The notes under the pieces were generated by a model, which saw nothing but the letters and a program-made list of their open reading frames with translations, had not been told where the DNA came from and did not search any database. Position numbers and translations under genes: made by a program. Shown here piece after piece: positions 53,820 to 63,827 of a stretch of 64,000 bases of DNA. The DNA lies in assembly GCA_964621305.1 (NCBI GenBank), contig CAZUOM010000003.1:14589-78588 (forward strand). The letters run 5' to 3'. The stretch is from an uncultured Gammaproteobacteria bacterium. GTDB taxonomy: Bacteria > Patescibacteriota > Microgenomatia > UBA10105 > UBA927. Positions within the stretch are counted from its first letter, which is position 1. Each line of letters opens with the position of its first letter.

Positions 53820-55213
53820 AGAAAGAACTTTTGTTAGTTTTAATACTTTTAGCTGTCGCAATAGCAGTTCGACTTTACAGGATCGATCAGCCCATGGCTG
53901 ACTGGCATAGTTTCCGCCAGGCTGATACGGCGGCCGTAGCCCGCAATTTCGAGATATTTGGATTTGATCCTCTGCGACCACGCGGCATTGACCTTTCCAA
54001 CATTCAGTCAGGAAAAGACAATCCGATGGGTTGGAGGATGGTGGAGTTTCCGCTCTATCAATCCGTTGGGTACAGGATAAAGAAGCTCTTTCCGTCTCTC
54101 TCATGGGAGGTTGCTTTGCGGCTAACTACGGTTGTTGCCTCATCGCTGACGGCACTTCTTTTGGCAGTAATCGTTCGACGTAGCGTTGGAATTCTCGCCG
54201 GCTTCATCACCTTTCTTTCTTTTGCGATTTTGCCATACAGCATTTTTTACGGCCGCGCGATCTTGCCGGAGCCTTTTATGGTTTTTTGGGCAGTTTTGAG
54301 TGTGTTTCTCCTTGCTCGCGGGCTTCCTGTTCCTTCCGCATTTGCTGCAGCTGTTGCCCTTTTGGTGAAACCGACCGCTCTATTTCTCCTTTTTCCCGTA
54401 CCGTACTTATTTTTCCGAAAGTTTTCTTTTTCAAAGCATTTGCTTATTTACTTATTTGTTTATTTACTTATTTGTTTATTACCCCTGTGGTGGTGGAGGG
54501 TCTGGATTCAACAGTTTCCGGAAGGAATACCGGTATTTAGTTGGCTTCTTAATGAAGGGAATATTCGACTAAAAGGCGCGTGGTTTTATTGGTTATTCGC
54601 CGAACGCCTGGGAAAGTTAATTCTTGGCTACTGGGGGCTTATACCTTTTGCGCTAGGCCTCTTAGTAGCTCCGTCAAAAAAAGAAGGTTGGCTTTTTCGA
54701 TTGTGGGGGATTGGAGCAATGGCGTATTTAATGGTTGTTGCAAGAGGTAACGTACAACATGATTATTACCAGATTCTCCTTTTACCGGTAATAAGCGTTT
54801 ATCTTGGAAAAGGATTTGCATTTTTATTAACTACTCCTGTTTTTTCCAAATTTATCACTTATCCCTTATCATTTATTACCTTTTTATTCATGCTCGCCTT
54901 TTCCTGGCATACAGTTCGCACCTACTATTGGATCAATCGGCCAGAAATTGTTGAGGCAGGAAAGGAAGCTGATAAAAATTTGCCTCCAAATGCTAAAGTT
55001 ATCGCTCCCTATCAGGGCGATACGACATTCCTTTATCAAATCAACAGAGTTGGTTGGCCGCTGGGGTTTGAGATCGATAAAAAAATAGCCATGGGTGCCA
55101 CCCACTACGTGACTGTGTCGCCAACCGATGCTGACCTTGAGACGAAAGAGCTCGCCGAAAAATATACTGTTTTAGTTCGCAACGACAAATTCGCCATTAT
55201 CGATCTCAGATGA
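53816..55213 (+). CDS. GT39/PMT_2 (ArnT-like) membrane glycosyltransferase (short form)
   Basis: RLYRIDQPMADWHSFRQADTAAVARNF. R-Q-A-D-T-A-x-x-A-R-N is the hallmark N-terminal loop of PMT_2 proteins. 465 aa multi-TM. Confidence 0.6.
   Translation: MKKELLLVLILLAVAIAVRLYRIDQPMADWHSFRQADTAAVARNFEIFGFDPLRPRGIDLSNIQSGKDNPMGWRMVEFPLYQSVGYRIKKLFPSLSWEVALRLTTVVASSLTALLLAVIVRRSVGILAGFITFLSFAILPYSIFYGRAILPEPFMVFWAVLSVFLLARGLPVPSAFAAAVALLVKPTALFLLFPVPYLFFRKFSFSKHLLIYLFVYLLICLLPLWWWRVWIQQFPEGIPVFSWLLNEGNIRLKGAWFYWLFAERLGKLILGYWGLIPFALGLLVAPSKKEGWLFRLWGIGAMAYLMVVARGNVQHDYYQILLLPVISVYLGKGFAFLLTTPVFSKFITYPLSFITFLFMLAFSWHTVRTYYWINRPEIVEAGKEADKNLPPNAKVIAPYQGDTTFLYQINRVGWPLGFEIDKKIAMGATHYVTVSPTDADLETKELAEKYTVLVRNDKFAIIDLR
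54444..54480 (+). repeat. 16-bp tandem repeat (ttatttacttatttgt)x2.3 inside GT39-like CDS
   Basis: ttatttac ttatttgt ttatttac ttatttgt ttatta, encoding LIYLFVYLLICLL. Confidence 0.7.
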
Positions 55214-56385
55214 AAATTCTTTTTGTCTCAGCCCTCTTGCCGTACCCTCCCCATCAAGGAGGGCAAGTCCGGATGTTTAACCTGCTCAAGCGAGTTGCCA
55301 AAAATCACGACGTGACGCTTCTGTCTTTTATTCGGAGTAATGATGAGATTGGGCATATTAAGAGCTTGGACTTTTGCAAAAAGGTTATTCCTGTTATGCG
55401 GGGCTCCGCTTGGCAATCAAAATATATTTTGCGGGCGGCTCTAACCAATATTCCACTTCTCTATGCAACCTATGAAAACGGGGAGATGCGACAAACGATT
55501 ACCAGAGAACTTGCTACAGGAGGTTATGACCTTATACATCTTGAGCCAAGTTACGTGCGGCCATCGCTACCAGATACAAAAATTCCTACAGTTGTAACAG
55601 AACACAACATTGAGTCGAGTGTTTATAGCGGGTTTGTCCGGCGTTTTCCGATTATTTTTGCAAGACCACTATTGTTCTTCGACGTAATTAAGCTTTGGTT
55701 TGGAGAGCGACAGATATGGAAAAAGGCAAATCATGTAATTGCTGTTTCAGAGCAAGATGCAGCTGTTATTAAAAAAGTTAATCTTAATGTAGCCGTAGTG
55801 TCAAATGGTGTGGATTTAGAAACATATTCATTCCGGCCAAAAATTAATAAAGGTGAACTGATATTTTTGTTTGTCGGATATTTTGGCTGGCTCCAAAACC
55901 GCGATGCGCTAACCTATTTAATGGAAAGCATTTGGCCAAAGATAATAGTGCAATTTCCGGGTGCGAAACTTCGGGTCGTAGGTAAAAATTTACCAAAAAC
56001 TTTGGCTAAAAAACTTAAAGGCGAATACATTTCAGAAGTAAGCGATCTTGCTTCTGAATATCATAATGCGGATCTTCTGTTGGCTCCGATTAGAATCGGA
56101 GGTGGAACGCGATATAAAATATTGGAAGCGATGGCTTGTGGCACGCCAGTCATAACGACAACCAAAGGCGCCCAAGGTTTGGGGGTCAGTGATCGAAAAG
56201 AACTTTTGATCGCCGATACGCCAGCGGCAACGGTAGACGCTATGAACAAGCTCACTGCCGAGCCTCGATTAAGGAAGGAAATGGTTAGCTTCGCGCGAAA
56301 ACTTGTCGAAAAAAGATATTCGTGGGATTTGCTTGCCCGAAAATTGGAAGGAGTTTGGCAGCATGCCGCAAAAAAATCACGCTGA
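55210..56385 (+). CDS. GT4 (group 1) glycosyltransferase
   Basis: MKILFVSALLPYPPHQGGQVRMFNLLKRV...FVGYFGWLQNRDAL...LAPIRIGGGTRYKILEAMACGTPVI. Confidence 0.8.
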   Translation: MKILFVSALLPYPPHQGGQVRMFNLLKRVAKNHDVTLLSFIRSNDEIGHIKSLDFCKKVIPVMRGSAWQSKYILRAALTNIPLLYATYENGEMRQTITRELATGGYDLIHLEPSYVRPSLPDTKIPTVVTEHNIESSVYSGFVRRFPIIFARPLLFFDVIKLWFGERQIWKKANHVIAVSEQDAAVIKKVNLNVAVVSNGVDLETYSFRPKINKGELIFLFVGYFGWLQNRDALTYLMESIWPKIIVQFPGAKLRVVGKNLPKTLAKKLKGEYISEVSDLASEYHNADLLLAPIRIGGGTRYKILEAMACGTPVITTTKGAQGLGVSDRKELLIADTPAATVDAMNKLTAEPRLRKEMVSFARKLVEKRYSWDLLARKLEGVWQHAAKKSR

Positions 56386-57232
56386 ACTTTCCATTATTGT
56401 AGTTTCTTATAATACCAAAGACCTCACGCGACAGTGTTTGGCGTCACTCCTTGCCGCCAAAACAAAAAAAGACTCATGGGAAATTATTGTCGTCGACAAC
56501 GCCTCGACCGACGGTTCGGCTCAAATAATTAAAAAGGAATTTCCAACGGTGAAACTAATGAATCAACACGGCAATCTCGGCTTTTCAGTCGGCAATAACG
56601 TTGGTATTCGACGATCTGGAGGGCGTTACATCCTGCTTCTTAATTCGGATACCGAAATAAGACCTGGATCAATTCAAAAAACGCTTGAGTTTCTCAAGAG
56701 TCAACCGGGTGTCGGAGTTGCGACGTGTAAGCTTGTGCAAGAGGATGGTTCTATGGATCCGGCCTGCCACCGAGGGTTTCCAACTCCATGGGCTTCTCTA
56801 ACGTATTTTTCCGGGCTCGAGCGACTGTTTCCCAGATTAAGATTTTTTGGACAATATCATCAAGGATATAAAGATTTACATGAGGCGCACGAAATCGATA
56901 GCCCAAGTGGAGCTTTTTTCATGGTCAGGAGAGAGGTAATCGACGCTGTTGGTCTTCTTGATGAGCAGTTTTTTATGTACGGCGAAGATCTTGATTGGGC
57001 TTATCGTATTAAACAAGCTGGGTGGAAAATAATGTTTTACCCGCAGGTGAGTGTTCTTCACAAGAAATGGCAAAGCGGAAAAGCCCACGCGGATGAAGTT
57101 ATCCGTAAAGAAACTCAAGAGCATTTTTCCGAATCAATGCAACTATTTTACAAAAAACATTACCAACACCGCTACGGGTGGCTGGTAACAGCGCTCGTTA
57201 TTTTAGGAATAAAACTTCATTCATTCAGGTAA
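56363..57232 (+). CDS. GT2 family glycosyltransferase
   Basis: LSIIVVSYNTKDLTRQCLASL...IIVVDNASTDGS...NLGFSVGNNVG...LLNSDT. Start at internal ATG 56363 is preferred; the ORF track begins at 56303, overlapping the previous gene. Confidence 0.75.
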   Translation: MPQKNHAELSIIVVSYNTKDLTRQCLASLLAAKTKKDSWEIIVVDNASTDGSAQIIKKEFPTVKLMNQHGNLGFSVGNNVGIRRSGGRYILLLNSDTEIRPGSIQKTLEFLKSQPGVGVATCKLVQEDGSMDPACHRGFPTPWASLTYFSGLERLFPRLRFFGQYHQGYKDLHEAHEIDSPSGAFFMVRREVIDAVGLLDEQFFMYGEDLDWAYRIKQAGWKIMFYPQVSVLHKKWQSGKAHADEVIRKETQEHFSESMQLFYKKHYQHRYGWLVTALVILGIKLHSFR

Positions 57233-57662: not shown

Positions 57663-58865
57663 ATGAAAAATTTTCTTCTCAATATTATACTCCTGATTAT
57701 TACTGTATTTTTCACTCCCAATGTTTTCGCACAAGAAGGGCCAAATCCAGCTGTTTCTCGTCTACAAGTAAAAATCCTTAATAAAAAGACTATCTACATC
57801 AATAACCAGCCCTTTATTCCCAAAGGCATTTGGAACCCGTTTGTAGTAAGTCTTGGAGAACTGGCAAACCCAACTATTATCAGCAGCCGTATTGAAGAAC
57901 TTGGAAGTAGAAAGTTTAACTTATTGGTGGAGAAGATAAATTGTCTTAGCGCCTTTAATGCCTGTAAGAATGTTCTTGACGCTCTATCCCTATTCAATCA
58001 AAACAGGACCTCTCCAAACGAGCAGATCTGGGCTTTTTTCTCCTTACAGGATGTGCTTTACGATAAAAACCTATCCGAAGAAGAGAGGATCAGAAAAACT
58101 AAAGAAGTGGTCAGAAAAGTCTATTCATACCCATTTTTCTTAGGCATGCTTCTTGGTGATGAACCGGACTATGGTCATGCTTCAGCAACATTTCTTGCCC
58201 AAGTTAATCAAGCTATCCATCAGGAATTTCCCAATATCCTGACATTTATTGACTTGGCAAAATCAGATCCGACTAGCGTAAAATCATTTCTCACATCAGC
58301 CGATATCCTTGCCCATGAACAGCATTTTTACAAAACTATTTACACCAGCTACGAAGATTATCTTCCGAAATTGGCTACCGACGCGAAACAGTTCGTCGAT
58401 GCCACCAAAGATTCAAACGGACAATATCAAATGCCTCTTTGGGGTGCAGTCCATACGTTCGGAAATTATACAGGCTATACCGATAGTCCACCGACCCCGC
58501 AGCAACATCTTAACATTACCAAAAAATGGCTTGAGGCAGGGGTGACTGGCGTTATTTACTACGCCTACCAGCATACAAATTGGATCCTCTCTAAAGACTC
58601 ACCTCACTCCTGGCCAACTACAACTGGTAGTTTTGGTTCACCAGCGCTTTGGAACAGTCTCACAGATACTAACTCTTATATAAACAAAACATTGACAACG
58701 ACACCTGGCGATCTCAATGCAGACAACAAAGTAGATATCTTTGATTATAATTTGATGGTCCAAAACTTTAGTGCCACTAATTGTGGCAATGTGGCTGATC
58801 TTGACGGCAACTGTAGGGTGGATATTTTTGACTACAATATCTTGGTGCAAAACTTTGGGAAATAG
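57663..58865 (+). CDS. Secreted protein with C-terminal dockerin-like domain (type I dockerin repeats); N-terminal domain possibly TIM-barrel glycoside-hydrolase-like
   Basis: Signal peptide MKNFLLNIILLIITVFFTPNVFA. C-terminus GDLNADNKVDIFDYNLMVQNF...VADLDGNCRVDIFDYNILVQNFGK is a duplicated Ca-loop D.N.D..VD...D segment, typical of dockerins. LLGDEPDYG is reminiscent of GH TIM-barrel NEP-type motifs. Confidence 0.65.
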   Translation: MKNFLLNIILLIITVFFTPNVFAQEGPNPAVSRLQVKILNKKTIYINNQPFIPKGIWNPFVVSLGELANPTIISSRIEELGSRKFNLLVEKINCLSAFNACKNVLDALSLFNQNRTSPNEQIWAFFSLQDVLYDKNLSEEERIRKTKEVVRKVYSYPFFLGMLLGDEPDYGHASATFLAQVNQAIHQEFPNILTFIDLAKSDPTSVKSFLTSADILAHEQHFYKTIYTSYEDYLPKLATDAKQFVDATKDSNGQYQMPLWGAVHTFGNYTGYTDSPPTPQQHLNITKKWLEAGVTGVIYYAYQHTNWILSKDSPHSWPTTTGSFGSPALWNSLTDTNSYINKTLTTTPGDLNADNKVDIFDYNLMVQNFSATNCGNVADLDGNCRVDIFDYNILVQNFGK

Positions 58866-58931
58866 ATCGCTTGACAATGGTCTATTTATATTCCATAATT
58901 AGTAGTATATTTTACTATTTGCGAAACAAAT

Positions 58932-59588
58932 ATGAATAATCTGAAGCTGAACAATATTTTAAAACAGGCGCCCTATCTGACTAAACAAAATCTGGCGCTC
59001 GCCCTTTCTAAGGAAGGAGAGAGTTTAAATTACTGGATAAAAAAGCTCTTGAAAGAAAAGGCCTTAATCAGCCTGAAAAAGGGTTTCTATATTTCTTCTT
59101 ATTATCTCGATCTTGTTTCGCAGAACCCTTTAAACAAAGAGGCTTATTTTGAGTATTTGGCCAATTTTTTACGTTTTCCTTCTTACATTTCTTTGGAATA
59201 CGTTCTGTCTTCCCGGAATTTTCTGGCCGAAACAGCCTTTGCCATTACTTCTGTTACTGTCAAATCGCCCCGCGTATACGAATCAGAAATTACCAAGTTT
59301 GTCTACCGCAGCATCAAGCAAGAACTATTTTCCGGTTACGGATTCAAAGAATTTGGAATAAAAAGTATAAAGATTGCCAGCCTTCCCAAGGCTTTTTTCG
59401 ATTTTGTCTACCTAAAAAAATTCGCTACGGTTGAGGAAATGCGCGAGTATTTAACTGAAGGGGGAAGATTTAACTGGGATGTCATGTTACCGAACGACAA
59501 AAAGGAACTGGTACAATTAACGGAGGTCTCCGGCTCAAAAAAGATGAAATTGGTTCTTTCTATTCTTAGAAAGGCTAAAATCTTATGA
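58932..59588 (+). CDS. AbiEi-family antitoxin / transcriptional regulator (type IV TA, abortive infection)
   Basis: 218 aa with an N-terminal wHTH-like segment (LTKQNLALALSKEGESLNYWIKKLLKEKALISLKKGFYIS). 4-bp overlap with the downstream AbiEii-like gene is classic pair organisation. Confidence 0.5.
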   Translation: MNNLKLNNILKQAPYLTKQNLALALSKEGESLNYWIKKLLKEKALISLKKGFYISSYYLDLVSQNPLNKEAYFEYLANFLRFPSYISLEYVLSSRNFLAETAFAITSVTVKSPRVYESEITKFVYRSIKQELFSGYGFKEFGIKSIKIASLPKAFFDFVYLKKFATVEEMREYLTEGGRFNWDVMLPNDKKELVQLTEVSGSKKMKLVLSILRKAKIL

Positions 59589-60424
59589 TCGTTGACAAAC
59601 TAAAATCAGTCCTGGATCAATATAAAACCAATGCTAATAAGCTCTTTATCCGAAGCGCTCTTAAAGAAGCTCTGCAAGATTATGTGCTCAACTTTATCTA
59701 CAATGACGCCGATTATAAAACGCTGATTTTCACCGGCGGAACGTGTCTACGAAAAGTTTATGGTCTGCCCCGTCTTTCCGAAGATCTGGATTTTGATTTT
59801 ATAGACGGGTTTGAGATCAAAAATTTTGCCGCTGGTATCAAGGCGTATTTTATCAAAGGACTACAGTATAAAGATCTAGCTGTAAAAGTAAGCGGCGCCG
59901 GACAATCCGTTTTTCTGAAATTTCCCATCTTTAAGGATTTGGGGTTGGTCAAGAACCCGTCTGATTCGCCGTTTCTTTTCGTCAGGTGCGATTTTTCCAG
60001 AGAAACAATCGGCGTTTTTAAAACCGAAGTCAATTCTATTTCTACCACGGAATTTTCTTTTTTTTCTTTATCTTATGATCTGCCGACCCTTTTTAGCAAT
60101 AAGATTATGGCTTTCCTAAAAAGGGATTTTTTTAAAGGGAAAAAACAGGCCCTCCCTTTCAAGGGCCGGGATTTGTTTGATCTGGTCTGGTTTCTGGAAA
60201 AGTCGAAAAAATCCGATTTAAAACCAAATTGGGAAAGACTGATTAAGGGATTAACAGTGAAAAGCAAACAAGAAGTTGTTGAAAGGATTCTTGATAAAAC
60301 AGAAAGAATCGAAAAGAAAGATGTCTATACTGACCTTTCGCCTTTTATTGAAAATGGTCAGGTCCTTGATAATTTTGTCAGTAACTTTGGCAGGATAATA
60401 AAAGATAATGCCAAGTATTTTTGA
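59585..60424 (+). CDS. AbiEii/AbiGii-family nucleotidyltransferase toxin (DUF1814; type IV TA / abortive infection)
   Basis: LIFTGGTCLRKVYGLPRLSEDLDFDF matches the conserved GGTAL...R.SEDLDF nucleotidyltransferase motif of AbiEii. Confidence 0.7.
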   Translation: MIVDKLKSVLDQYKTNANKLFIRSALKEALQDYVLNFIYNDADYKTLIFTGGTCLRKVYGLPRLSEDLDFDFIDGFEIKNFAAGIKAYFIKGLQYKDLAVKVSGAGQSVFLKFPIFKDLGLVKNPSDSPFLFVRCDFSRETIGVFKTEVNSISTTEFSFFSLSYDLPTLFSNKIMAFLKRDFFKGKKQALPFKGRDLFDLVWFLEKSKKSDLKPNWERLIKGLTVKSKQEVVERILDKTERIEKKDVYTDLSPFIENGQVLDNFVSNFGRIIKDNAKYF

Positions 60425-60473
60425 CTATAATGATTATAATTTAGCGGTAAGGAATTTTGGGAAGACACAATGA
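60417..60473 (+). pseudogene. Remnant of a dockerin repeat 3' end (IFDYNDYNLAVRNFGKTQ*) between the AbiEii stop and the next gene start
   Basis: Alternate frame spanning the AbiEii stop translates to SIFDYNDYNLAVRNFGKTQ-stop, homologous to the IFDYNILVGNFGKTN* C-termini of the flanking dockerin proteins. Its TGA overlaps the ATG of 60470. Confidence 0.5.
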
Positions 60474-61636
60474 AAAAAATTATTCTTCTCACTTTTATAC
60501 TTCTTATTTCCGCTTTAACGCTTACCCCCAACGTTTTAGCACAAGATGCTCCGGGCGTGCCCGTGGTTCCCTTCGTTTTCGCCGTTGACATTATGGGTCA
60601 GGGGTATTCCTCTGAAAATTGTAACGCGCTGAGGACCAGAGCCGGCTATTGCTTTGGACTGGAGACAGACTTGGAGAAAATAAAGAAAGCCTACAATACA
60701 ATCAATGTGGTTTCCAGCATACCTGCATATTGGGATAGGTGGCTGATACGTGTTATTCAAAAAGCTAGGGAGAAAAACTTGGCAGTGATTATCAATAGTA
60801 GTACCGCTACAAATGTCGAACAATGGTTTACTGATTTATCACTGAAGGTGAAAAACCATCCCAATGTGATAGGTTTTCGGGTGGTTGATGAGATTGGTAG
60901 TACGAACACTATTGACTTCTGGTTATCTTATCTCAGAAAGACAAAAGCCGGTATCAGAAAAAATTCTCAAGCTCCAATTATGGTTGACGTCATTCCCTGT
61001 GAATATGTGCATAATAATCCTTCATGGTGTCAGGAGAAATATCCAGCCATGACGCTTTCGGCTATTGACCGGTATGTAAATTCCGGTTATATCGATGCCC
61101 TCATTTTATCGTTGGGTAATGACTTGGAAGCAGATTTAAAAACTGCGGTTGATAGATGGGGAGGAAAGGTGAAGATTTATGTTCGCAATGGAAGTGCTAT
61201 TAAGTTGAATTTATCATTTCCCCCGGATGCCGAAATAAAAACAAAGATATTAAACCGCCAAAATTTTATCAGGGATAACGGAGCAATCGGAACAAGTGAT
61301 TATGCCTGGAGACATGAAAGCAGTCCCGGAGACGAATATAGAATGTTAAACGCAGACGGAACGGAAACAAGTATCTATCGCGCTCTGGTCGCCACATTTC
61401 AGGCATTCGGAAGTCCAAGATTCAATTTTCCCGCACCGCCAATTTCAACGCCAACGCCTATATTACTACCCGGCGATCTCAACAGAGACAACAAAGTAGA
61501 CATCTTTGATTATAACTTATTGGTCCAGCACTTTGGCAACACCACTTGCCGCAATGTGGCTGATATTGACGGCAACTGCAAGGTGGATATTTTTGACTAT
61601 AATATCCTGGTAGGGAATTTTGGGAAAACGAACTAG
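60470..61636 (+). CDS. Secreted protein with C-terminal dockerin-like domain; N-terminal domain possibly TIM-barrel hydrolase-like
   Basis: Signal peptide MKKIILLTFILLISALTLTPNVLA. C-terminus GDLNRDNKVDIFDYNLLVQHF...VADIDGNCKVDIFDYNILVGNFGKTN. Internal FRVVDEIGS beta-strand-acid motif. Confidence 0.65.
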   Translation: MKKIILLTFILLISALTLTPNVLAQDAPGVPVVPFVFAVDIMGQGYSSENCNALRTRAGYCFGLETDLEKIKKAYNTINVVSSIPAYWDRWLIRVIQKAREKNLAVIINSSTATNVEQWFTDLSLKVKNHPNVIGFRVVDEIGSTNTIDFWLSYLRKTKAGIRKNSQAPIMVDVIPCEYVHNNPSWCQEKYPAMTLSAIDRYVNSGYIDALILSLGNDLEADLKTAVDRWGGKVKIYVRNGSAIKLNLSFPPDAEIKTKILNRQNFIRDNGAIGTSDYAWRHESSPGDEYRMLNADGTETSIYRALVATFQAFGSPRFNFPAPPISTPTPILLPGDLNRDNKVDIFDYNLLVQHFGNTTCRNVADIDGNCKVDIFDYNILVGNFGKTN

Positions 61637-62447
61637 TGCTGCTAGAATGAATACATTGAAAAAATATTTGGGGATTATTCTGTTGGCAGTTGCGGTACTT
61701 GGTACCGCTGGGTGGGTATCTAGGCCCCAAAATACACAGGAAACTCGCAGCAGGGCCTGGGCGGCAAGCACTCTGTCGTTTGACCCATCGAATGCGTCTG
61801 TTGGCGTGGGACAGCTGGTTTCACTAGACGTCAAAATCACGCCTGCGACAAATATTGTAAGTGCAACAGAGCTCTATTTTCGGTACGACCCTGCAAGAGT
61901 TGAGTTGCTAAGTATCGTACCCTCGTCTGCTTTTTCTGCAATACTTTCTGCTGCATCCATTAATAACGCGACTGGGCAAGCCAGTATTACAGTCGGTACG
62001 CCTCCGCTGTCGCCGGTCAAAGATCCAACATCGGTAGCAACCATTTCATTTCGTACGAAAACTGCTGGTTCGCCAACCACCGTTACCTTCACTTCTGCCA
62101 CCAAAGTGGCCGCGCTTAATGAGAAAGGCAATGTTGTCTCATCTCTGACGCCCGCTACGATCGCCATCCTTTTACCCACGCCTACGCCAACCCCCATTCC
62201 CACTGTGACACCCACGCCGACACCACGACCGACGGTAACCCCGACACCTACTCCCACTGCAACGCCCACGCCTACCCCAACGCCACTGCCGGGAGATCTG
62301 GATCGAGACGGAGACGTGGATATTTACGACTACAATATCCTGGTTACAAACTTTGGACGAACTGGAACAAATGTGGCAGATATTGACGGCAACGGCAAAG
62401 TAGATATTTTTGACTACAATATCATCGTAACGAATTTCGGCAAGTGA
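61620..62447 (+). CDS. Cohesin-like domain protein with Pro/Thr linker and C-terminal dockerin-like domain (adaptor-like)
   Basis: N-terminal TM/signal. About 135-aa domain TLSFDPSNASVGVGQLVSLDVKITPATNIVSATELYFRYDPARVELLSIVP...ITVGTPPLSP...ATISFRTK follows the cohesin pattern (...DF.L.YDP..LE...). PTPTPTPIPTVTPTPTPRPTVTPTPTPTATPTPTPTP linker; C-terminal GDLDRDGDVDIYDYNILVTNF...VADIDGNGKVDIFDYNIIVTNFGK. Confidence 0.6.
   Translation: MGKRTSAARMNTLKKYLGIILLAVAVLGTAGWVSRPQNTQETRSRAWAASTLSFDPSNASVGVGQLVSLDVKITPATNIVSATELYFRYDPARVELLSIVPSSAFSAILSAASINNATGQASITVGTPPLSPVKDPTSVATISFRTKTAGSPTTVTFTSATKVAALNEKGNVVSSLTPATIAILLPTPTPTPIPTVTPTPTPRPTVTPTPTPTATPTPTPTPLPGDLDRDGDVDIYDYNILVTNFGRTGTNVADIDGNGKVDIFDYNIIVTNFGK
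62170..62285 (+). repeat. Pro/Thr-linker coding repeats (ACN-CCN)n
   Basis: Encodes PTPTPTPIPTVTPTPTPRPTVTPTPTPTATPTPTPTPLP between the cohesin-like and dockerin-like modules. Antisense gives the spurious GVGVGV ORF 61874..62269. Confidence 0.8.
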
Positions 62448-62466
62448 ATTTTGGTATGCTGGATCT

Positions 62467-63015
62467 ATGGCTAAATCTCAGAGGCAAAATCATTGGCTGA
62501 TGCCACTTATCATCGTGGCATTGGTGGTGCTCGGAGTATACGCTGTGGTGCGACTAAAGATTCCTTTGTTACCCACGTTTTCATCTGTGTCGCAGGTTGC
62601 CGCGGATACCACGCTGTCGTTTGTTCCTGCGACTCTGACGGGGAAAGTCGGCGAGACCAAAACTCTTGCCATTGCCGTTTCTTCCGGCAAAAACACCCTG
62701 ACAGGAGCGGAGTTTCAACTTTCCATCGACTCCTCTGTTGCGCGCATTCAGAAAGCCTCCGCTGCATCTTTTTTTGAAAAGCCGACAGTTCTTGCAAACG
62801 TTCTCTCAAAGTCAGGCAGTTCCCTTCACTTTGCCGTCGGCAGTTTGACTCCTAAGCAGGGAGACGGAACATTAGTAAACATTACGATGCGCCTGATCAA
62901 GCCGGGGAGCATAGCTATGAGTTTTTTTGACGTCAAGATTGCGGCGGTGGGCGCCGGATCAACCAATGTCTTTCGTGCAGCCTCGCCGATTACAATTACT
63001 GTGACAAAACCATGA
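62467..63015 (+). CDS. Membrane-anchored cohesin-like domain protein
   Basis: N-terminal TM (WLMPLIIVALVVLGVYAVV), then TLSFVPATLTGKVGETKTLAIAVSSGKNTLTGAEFQLSIDSSVARIQ...LVNITMRLIKPG, the same domain pattern as 61620 and 63012. Confidence 0.55.
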   Translation: MAKSQRQNHWLMPLIIVALVVLGVYAVVRLKIPLLPTFSSVSQVAADTTLSFVPATLTGKVGETKTLAIAVSSGKNTLTGAEFQLSIDSSVARIQKASAASFFEKPTVLANVLSKSGSSLHFAVGSLTPKQGDGTLVNITMRLIKPGSIAMSFFDVKIAAVGAGSTNVFRAASPITITVTKP

Positions 63016-63827
63016 AATTGCTTCGTCCGTTTCTGCCATTTTTGGTGCTGGCATTTGTCTTAGGTGTGTTGGTAACGGCGGTGCAAAAGCCACAGGAACT
63101 CCGAAGGAAAGCCGCACCGGCCACCACCCTTTCATTTTCTCCTGCCAACCTTTCGGTCCATCCCGGCGACACATTTGACGTGAGCATACTAGTGGAAACA
63201 GGAGAAAATACTATTTCCGCCGCCGACATTAGCATTTCCTTTGACAAGAATAAACTGCAGGGCAAATCGATAGTAGCCGACGACTTTCTGACGAATGTCC
63301 TGATCTCCGGAGCTATTGGCGATGGTAAAGCGACCATCACCCTCGGCAGTCCGCCAACATCTCCTAAAAAGGGAAACGGAAAGCTTGCAACCGTCATATT
63401 TCGGGCAAAAGACTCAGGGACAACACAAGTAAGTTTTACTGACGCAACGCAAATTGCCGGTATCGGAGAGAACACAAATGTTATTATCGGGAAAACTCCG
63501 GCAACCGTAACGATTGGGAGCGGCGGCAGTGTATCCAAACCCACGCTGACTCCCACGCCACGGCGCTCCAGTCAGTCGAAGACCCAGCCATCGCCGGTAC
63601 CACCGGCCGAGGTTTCCGCCCAATTGAGTACGTGTACTTGTGGCGACGGCATATGTCAGAAAGACAACTGTGGGGAGTCTGCTTTTACCTGTGCGGCTGA
63701 CTGTAAATCCGTCGCTTCAGATGCTACCGGTTTACCGACATTGCCTATCGTGTCCGAAAAAAACTCTGAGCCCTTCTTTGTCAGTTTCGTTAGAAAAGTA
63801 CTCAGTCTTTTTGGCATCAGATTTTAG
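63012..63827 (+). CDS. Cohesin-like domain protein with Cys-rich C-terminal region
   Basis: Signal/TM, then TLSFSPANLSVHPGDTFDVSILVETGENTISAADISISFDKNKLQ...ATITLGSPPTSP...ATVIFRAKDSG. C-terminal STCTCGDGICQKDNCGESAFTCAADCKS. Confidence 0.55.
   Translation: MKLLRPFLPFLVLAFVLGVLVTAVQKPQELRRKAAPATTLSFSPANLSVHPGDTFDVSILVETGENTISAADISISFDKNKLQGKSIVADDFLTNVLISGAIGDGKATITLGSPPTSPKKGNGKLATVIFRAKDSGTTQVSFTDATQIAGIGENTNVIIGKTPATVTIGSGGSVSKPTLTPTPRRSSQSKTQPSPVPPAEVSAQLSTCTCGDGICQKDNCGESAFTCAADCKSVASDATGLPTLPIVSEKNSEPFFVSFVRKVLSLFGIRF

What the first reader, a model, noticed from the sequence alone, without database searches (positions are those of the whole stretch)
57663..63827. Compact cohesin-dockerin-like gene set embedded in a glycosylation island
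Two signal-peptide proteins (57663..58865, 60470..61636) end in duplicated Ca-loop-like segments of the form GDLN.DNKVDIFDYN.LV.NF ... VAD.DGNC.VDIFDYNILV.NFGK, which is the architecture of type I dockerins. Immediately downstream, three tandem genes each encode a TM/signal segment plus a roughly 135-aa domain sharing the pattern TLSF.P....V..G......I.V..G.N.ISA.E..F.YD...L ... ITVG.PP.SP ... ATI.FR.K. This parallels the clostridial cohesin signature (...DFVLGYDPNVLE...). One protein (61620..62447) has a cohesin-like module, a PT linker and a dockerin module in one chain, like cellulosomal adaptor scaffoldins. Another (62467..63015) is a TM-anchored cohesin-only protein, like an anchoring scaffoldin. 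A third carries a Cys-rich tail. The dockerin-bearing proteins have non-cellulase, possibly TIM-barrel hydrolase-like N-domains (LLGDEPDY, VVDEIGS). A minimal cohesin-dockerin surface assembly wired into an extensive glycan-synthesis locus of an apparently CPR-like organism would be an unusual and possibly undescribed cell-surface system, for example display of glycan-modifying enzymes on a membrane-anchored scaffold.
Basis: partly seen in the sequence, partly recalled or inferred. Interest (0 to 1): 0.8.

Follow-up and report, generated by a model that had tools for sequence, protein, structure and literature searches.

The report
Minimal cohesin-dockerin enzyme-display cassette in CPR
An ultra-small, uncultured (Gottesmanbacteria-like) bacterium encodes two secreted enzymes with dockerin plugs next to three single-cohesin socket proteins, a stripped-down non-cellulosomal relative of the clostridial cellulosome that recurs across this bacterial group and has so far been mentioned only in passing.

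Summary

The same triad, adaptor Coh-Doc, short membrane-anchored Coh and long Coh with a C-terminal anchor, sits in the same order after different dockerin enzymes (sulfatases and others) in a Gottesmanbacteria genome. Dockerin genes directly followed by cohesin genes occur in 27 of 70 loci, mostly Microgenomates.

The best explanation is a non-cellulosomal system that holds interchangeable secreted hydrolases on the cell surface. The link to the surrounding glycosylation island is lineage-specific: a GT4 gene lies nearby in 3 of 69 related loci. CPR 'cellulosome-related' clusters were noted in 2013 and 2022 but never dissected. Verdict: real, a new variant of a known kind, moderate interest.

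The parts
57663..58865 (+). P1 is a secreted dockerin-bearing enzyme of 400 aa. It has a Sec signal peptide (aa 1-23, ...TPNVFA|QE), a clan GH-A (beta/alpha)8 barrel (about aa 33-346, conserved GDEPD at 165-169) and a compact dockerin (aa 348-400).
58704..58862 (+). Dockerin module of P1. It has two 12-residue Ca loops (DLNADNKVDIFD and DLDGNCRVDIFD) 29 aa apart, each followed by a helix motif YN(L/I)(M/L)VQNF. A Cys pair sits in the linker and in loop 2.
   Evidence: Dockerin_1 scores 27.2 bits for the tail alone against a cutoff of 22.9. Motif scan. Family analysis.
60470..61636 (+). P2 is the second secreted dockerin-bearing protein, 388 aa. It has a signal peptide (...TPNVLA|QD), an orphan N-domain (aa 25-330, VVDEIGS at 138) and a dockerin (aa 333-388, window 61466-61633) that is 80% identical to P1's, with the same Cys pair.
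   Evidence: Dockerin_1 scores 24.3 bits, above the cutoff. The dockerins are 80-81% identical. The N-domain has no homologue other than itself and only a weak hhalign match to the P1 family, probability 25%.
61647..62447 (+). P3 is an adaptor-type scaffoldin of 266 aa. It has an N-terminal hydrophobic helix (aa 2-24), a QETRSRAWA motif, a cohesin (aa 38-176, window 61758-62174), a PT linker (aa 177-214, 62175-62288) and a dockerin (aa 215-266, 62289-62444) with VDIYDYN in repeat 1 and 28-aa spacing.
   Evidence: Pfam Cohesin scores 30.6 bits, above the cutoff. AF2 pLDDT is 85, above 90 in the sandwich, with two dockerin helices. Foldseek's top 50 hits are all cohesins, E 1e-10. Orthologues are P0064, P0087 and P0094.
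62467..63015 (+). P4 is a short cohesin-only protein of 182 aa. It has an N-terminal hydrophobic segment (aa 10-30) with no conserved AxA site, and a cohesin (aa 45-182). It is the likely membrane-anchored socket.
   Evidence: Pfam Cohesin scores 27.0 bits, above the cutoff. It is the most conserved of the three cohesins against the L005 orthologue, 74%. Short Coh-only orthologues recur in L002, L005, L009, L015, L020, L037, L065 and L074.
63012..63827 (+). P5 is a long cohesin protein of 271 aa. It has an N-terminal hydrophobic segment plus a QELRRKAAPA motif, a cohesin (aa 35-170), a P/T/S-rich stalk, a Cys-rich knot (aa 208-231, window 63633-63704) and a C-terminal amphipathic helix (aa 251-271, 63762-63824). 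It is the likely surface anchor. It overlaps P4 by 4 bp.
   Evidence: Pfam Cohesin scores 38.9 bits. PDB phmmer hits the C. perfringens NagJ cohesin at E 0.002. Its 13 homologues all carry a cohesin or Ig-like domain. The amphipathic moment is muH 0.48, z 1.9. Relatives carry LPXTG-like signals plus a TM segment instead.

Best explanation
This is a minimal, non-cellulosomal cohesin-dockerin surface-display system of a Gottesmanbacteria-like (Microgenomates, CPR/Patescibacteria) bacterium.

Shown here. P1 and P2 carry ordinary Sec signal peptides and end in a compact type-I-like dockerin with two Ca loops. P1's catalytic part is a clan GH-A glycoside-hydrolase-like TIM barrel. P3, P4 and P5 each carry one cohesin. 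P2 to P5 are tightly packed with gaps of 10 and 19 nt and a 4-nt overlap, consistent with an operon. The triad and its order are conserved in a sister genome, where the upstream dockerin enzymes are different.

Inferred. After export, the enzymes' dockerins plug Ca-dependently into cohesins, which holds the hydrolases on the surface of a very small cell so that the products of extracellular glycan breakdown, or contact with a host surface, stay local. P4 stays in the membrane through an uncleaved N-terminal signal-anchor. P5 is held through its C-terminus, by an amphipathic helix here and an LPXTG-like signal in relatives, on a P/T-rich, Cys-knotted stalk. P3 is an adaptor whose own distinct dockerin (VDIYDYN, 28-aa spacing, 87% conserved between genomes) binds an anchor cohesin, most likely P4. 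P3's cohesin then takes the enzyme dockerins (VDIFDYN with a Cys pair). The enzyme set is an exchangeable cargo module, and the three scaffoldins are the conserved chassis.
For: Domain identity: Pfam Cohesin is above the cutoff in P3, P4 and P5, and Dockerin_1 hits P1, P2 and P3. Of 30 family tails, 29 hit Dockerin_1. The family profile has dockerin 2y3n_B as its best PDB match, E 1.7e-7, over both repeats.

Genomic association: dockerin motifs occur in only these three ORFs of the window. In 70 non-redundant loci found through the dockerin motif, 32 have both a dockerin-only gene and a cohesin gene, 27 have a dockerin gene directly followed by a cohesin gene, 19 have Coh-Doc fusions and 17 have two or more cohesin genes.

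Conserved triad with variable cargo: L005 has sulfatase-Doc, a 661-aa Doc protein and a 497-aa Doc protein, then CohDoc-Coh-Coh-GT4. L002 has GH39-Doc with the same three cohesin types.

Anchoring: 7 of 64 cohesin ORFs end in P-x-[TAS]-G plus a TM segment, against 5 of 896 other ORFs. C-terminal amphipathic helices appear in 10 of 11 of the other class.

Two specificities: the adaptor and cargo dockerins differ within the same locus in the window, L005, L002, L025 and L043. The P4 cohesin (74%) and the P3 dockerin (87%) are the most conserved partners between the window and L005.

Cargo census: beta-helix/GH28, GH5, GH39, GH10, DUF4434, sulfatase, esterase and CBMs.
Against: No binding was measured or co-folded, so who binds whom is inference from two or three genomes. 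The dockerin core VDIFDYN is almost invariant across the family, so specificity differences may be small or absent; in L010 the adaptor and cargo dockerins are the same type. Signal-peptide versus signal-anchor status of P3, P4 and P5 could not be predicted with a dedicated tool. If all three N-termini stay in the membrane, the 'adaptor' is itself tethered. The P1 family lacks a conserved Glu after strand 7, the clan GH-A nucleophile position, so hydrolase activity is not assured. P2's function is unknown. The dockerin part of the P1 model had pLDDT below 50.
Confidence: 0.8

Rival explanations
1. Envelope-glycan remodelling module. The cassette belongs functionally to the surrounding glycosylation island. 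P1 and P2 trim or process the cell's own surface glycan or glycoprotein, in the way PslG, BcsZ or AlgL hydrolases do in exopolysaccharide operons. The cohesins keep them next to the export site.
For: The cassette lies between GT2/GT4 genes upstream (55210-57232) and a GT4 gene downstream. The same downstream GT4-GT4-NTP_transferase-Bac_transf block follows the triad in L005. P1 is glycoside-hydrolase-like.
Against: Adjacency to glycosyltransferases is confined to this lineage. A GT4 homologue lies within about 8 kb in only 3 of 69 related loci (855 kb), and no GT2 homologue in any. The cargo in the sister genome is sulfatases and unrelated proteins, which do not look like processing enzymes for the same polymer.
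Confidence: 0.15
2. A true cellulosome. The genes build a plant-cell-wall-degrading multi-enzyme complex, as previous CPR papers assumed when they saw cohesin or dockerin annotations.
For: The domain families are the same. Some relatives' cargo includes GH5, GH10, GH26, GH43 and CBM4_9. The literature calls such CPR clusters 'cellulosome-related'.
Against: No scaffoldin has multiple cohesins, and there is no CBM3, no SLH domain and no GH9 or GH48. P1 and P2 have no cellulase Pfam hit. Cargo elsewhere includes sulfatases, phosphoesterases, esterases and phytase-like proteins.
Confidence: 0.04
3. The dockerin-like tails are generic Ca-binding repeats (EF-hand, FG-GAP or thrombospondin-type) that stabilise secreted proteins or bind the wall independently of cohesins. 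The cohesin-like proteins are unrelated surface or adhesin proteins.
For: FG-GAP_3 and EF-hand models give weak hits on the same residues: 26.0 bits against a cutoff of 26.9 in P3, and 13 of 30 tails hit FG-GAP_3. Two of three full-length Dockerin_1 scores are just below the cutoff.
Against: Dockerin_1 aligns over both repeats in 29 of 30 tails. The best solved matches are dockerins over both repeats. The tails are always C-terminal and duplicated with 27-31 aa spacing. Their genes sit directly next to cohesin genes in 27 of 70 loci and are fused to cohesins in 19.
Confidence: 0.05

Closest known systems
Ruminococcus flavefaciens ScaC (single cohesin plus dockerin adaptor) and ScaE (single cohesin, sortase-anchored); architecture from my own knowledge, ScaE cohesin structure 2zf9 among the fold hits
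   Same: The adaptor is a small protein with one cohesin and one C-terminal dockerin, like P3. The anchor is a single-cohesin protein with a C-terminal LPXTG signal, as in the P5-type proteins of L002, L020, L037, L043 and L065. Assembly is hierarchical, using dockerins of different specificity.
   Different: R. flavefaciens also has multi-cohesin primary scaffoldins (ScaA, ScaB), CBM-bearing components and hundreds of fibrolytic dockerin enzymes. Here every scaffoldin has one cohesin. The window's P5 uses an amphipathic helix instead of LPXTG. There is an extra N-terminally anchored cohesin (P4). The dockerins are shorter, about 53 aa.
Clostridium thermocellum OlpA and OlpC, single type I cohesin anchoring proteins (PDB 3ul4, 4dh2)
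   Same: A single cohesin on the cell surface binds enzyme-borne type I dockerins directly. The fold match has TM 0.67-0.78.
   Different: OlpA and OlpC anchor through SLH domains to the wall of a Firmicute. Here the anchors are a TM segment, an amphipathic helix or an LPXTG-like signal, and no SLH domain was found.
Non-cellulosomal cohesin-dockerin pairs: C. perfringens GH84C/NagJ toxin complexes (2jh2, 2ozn, 2w1n), the Archaeoglobus fulgidus cohesin (2xdh) and the minimal ClcC/ClcD pair of Cellulosilyticum lentocellum (PMC13487519)
   Same: Cohesin and dockerin are used outside plant-cell-wall degradation or in highly reduced form. The P5 cohesin's best sequence match in the PDB is the NagJ cohesin. 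In C. lentocellum, adjacent genes encode one cohesin and one dockerin.
   Different: Those systems have one pair, or enzyme-to-enzyme links. Here a conserved three-scaffoldin chassis with an adaptor tier and exchangeable cargo genes recurs across a whole candidate-phylum group.
Earlier mentions in CPR genomes: 'putative cellulosome-related gene cluster' in OD1 RAAC4 and a dockerin-like protein plus a cellulosome-anchoring protein in SR1 (PMC3812714); expressed cohesin and dockerin proteins in Ca. Shapirobacterales (10.1101/2021.08.21.457207); an essential dockerin-domain protein in a Saccharibacterium (PMC10633639)
   Same: The same domain families appear in the same superphylum. Expression was shown by metaproteomics in one case.
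   Different: These are one-sentence annotations read as cellulose degradation. In the papers I could search, none describes the triad architecture, the compact dockerin subtype, the scaffoldin N-terminal motif, the anchors or the variable cargo.

Membership tests
Cohesin (Pfam PF00963) | Significant match to the family profile above the curated cutoff | tested here: met
   P3 scores 30.6, P4 27.0 and P5 38.9 bits against a cutoff of 24.1. P5 hits the NagJ cohesin in the PDB at E 0.002.
Cohesin (Pfam PF00963) | Nine-stranded flattened beta-sandwich (jelly-roll) fold | tested here: met
   The P3 model has pLDDT above 90 over aa 41-175 and is all-beta. The Foldseek top 50 are all cohesins, E down to 1e-10, TM 0.75-0.78. 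P4 and P5 were not modelled and are inferred from the alignment.
Cohesin (Pfam PF00963) | Binds a dockerin, Ca-dependently, on the 8-3-6-5 face | not testable with these tools
   There is only genomic association: a dockerin gene is directly followed by a cohesin gene in 27 of 70 loci. No multimer prediction or binding assay was available.
Dockerin type I (Pfam PF00404) | Profile match over both repeats | tested here: met
   P2 scores 24.3 bits against a cutoff of 22.9. P1 scores 20.5 and P3 20.4 in the full-length scan. The P1 tail alone scores 27.2, and 29 of 30 family tails match. The family profile hits dockerin 2y3n_B at E 1.7e-7 over residues 2-55.
Dockerin type I (Pfam PF00404) | Duplicated segment consisting of a 12-residue Ca loop with D/N at positions 1, 3, 5, 9 and 12, followed by a helix (F-hand) | tested here: met
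   DLNADNKVDIFD and DLDGNCRVDIFD, and their equivalents in P2 and P3, fit the pattern. AF2 places helices 226-234 and 254-263 after the two loops of P3 at pLDDT about 80-87. Spacing is 27-31 aa, which I recall as shorter than in canonical dockerins (from my own knowledge). The dockerin of the P1 model was low-confidence.
Cellulosome (system) | Primary scaffoldin with several cohesins and a cellulose-binding CBM | tested here: not met
   Each of P3, P4 and P5 has one cohesin and no CBM or SLH hit.
Cellulosome (system) | Dockerin-borne cellulases or hemicellulases (GH5, GH9, GH48 and similar) | tested here: not met
   P1 and P2 have no cellulase family hit. P1 is a clan GH-A fold of no assigned family. 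P2 is an orphan. Some relatives elsewhere do carry GH5 or GH10.
Glycoside hydrolase clan GH-A (P1 N-domain) | (beta/alpha)8 barrel | tested here: met
Glycoside hydrolase clan GH-A (P1 N-domain) | Acid/base Glu after strand 4 (NEP motif) and nucleophile Glu after strand 7 | tested here: inconclusive
   D166-E167-P168 directly follows strand 4 and is the best conserved motif of the family. No conserved Glu follows strand 7 (LWGAVHTF-GNY) in the 10-sequence alignment.
AbiE type IV toxin-antitoxin (intervening genes 58932-60424) | AbiEii nucleotidyltransferase preceded by an overlapping AbiEi antitoxin gene | tested here: met
   AbiEii PF08843 scores 62.9 bits against a cutoff of 22.5. The upstream gene matches TAA_AbiEi only weakly, 21 bits against a cutoff of 150. 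The genes overlap by 4 bp.

The most novel reading that the evidence does not exclude
Microgenomates and related CPR bacteria share a dedicated three-tier scaffold built only from single-cohesin proteins: a membrane socket, a C-terminally anchored stalked socket, and a Coh-Doc adaptor. The scaffold has its own N-terminal sorting or processing signature (hydrophobic segment followed by Q-E/D-I/L/V-R-x-K/R-A-A/P-A/S) that the cargo enzymes lack, and it uses two dockerin specificities. It serves as a general plug-and-play organiser of the surface of these ultra-small, host-dependent cells, holding hydrolases, sulfatases and adhesins at the cell-host or cell-substrate interface. The Coh-Doc adaptor might also self-polymerise into an extracellular chain or matrix. 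Under this reading, cohesin-dockerin would be a core cell-surface organising principle of a major bacterial radiation rather than a clostridial speciality.
Probability: 0.3. Interest if true: 0.75.

Novelty: new variant of a known kind. Interest (0 to 1): 0.55.

Why it matters
CPR/Patescibacteria make up a large share of bacterial diversity, have tiny cells and genomes, and are thought to live attached to other cells. How they organise their surface and feed is largely unknown. A conserved, genetically compact cohesin-dockerin chassis with exchangeable enzyme cargo gives a concrete, testable mechanism for retaining extracellular hydrolases on such cells. It also corrects the habit of reading these genes as 'cellulosome means cellulose degradation'. 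Finally, it offers very small parts for protein-assembly engineering: 53-aa dockerins, some with a probable disulfide staple, and cohesins of about 135 aa. The practical value depends on showing the binding pairs experimentally.

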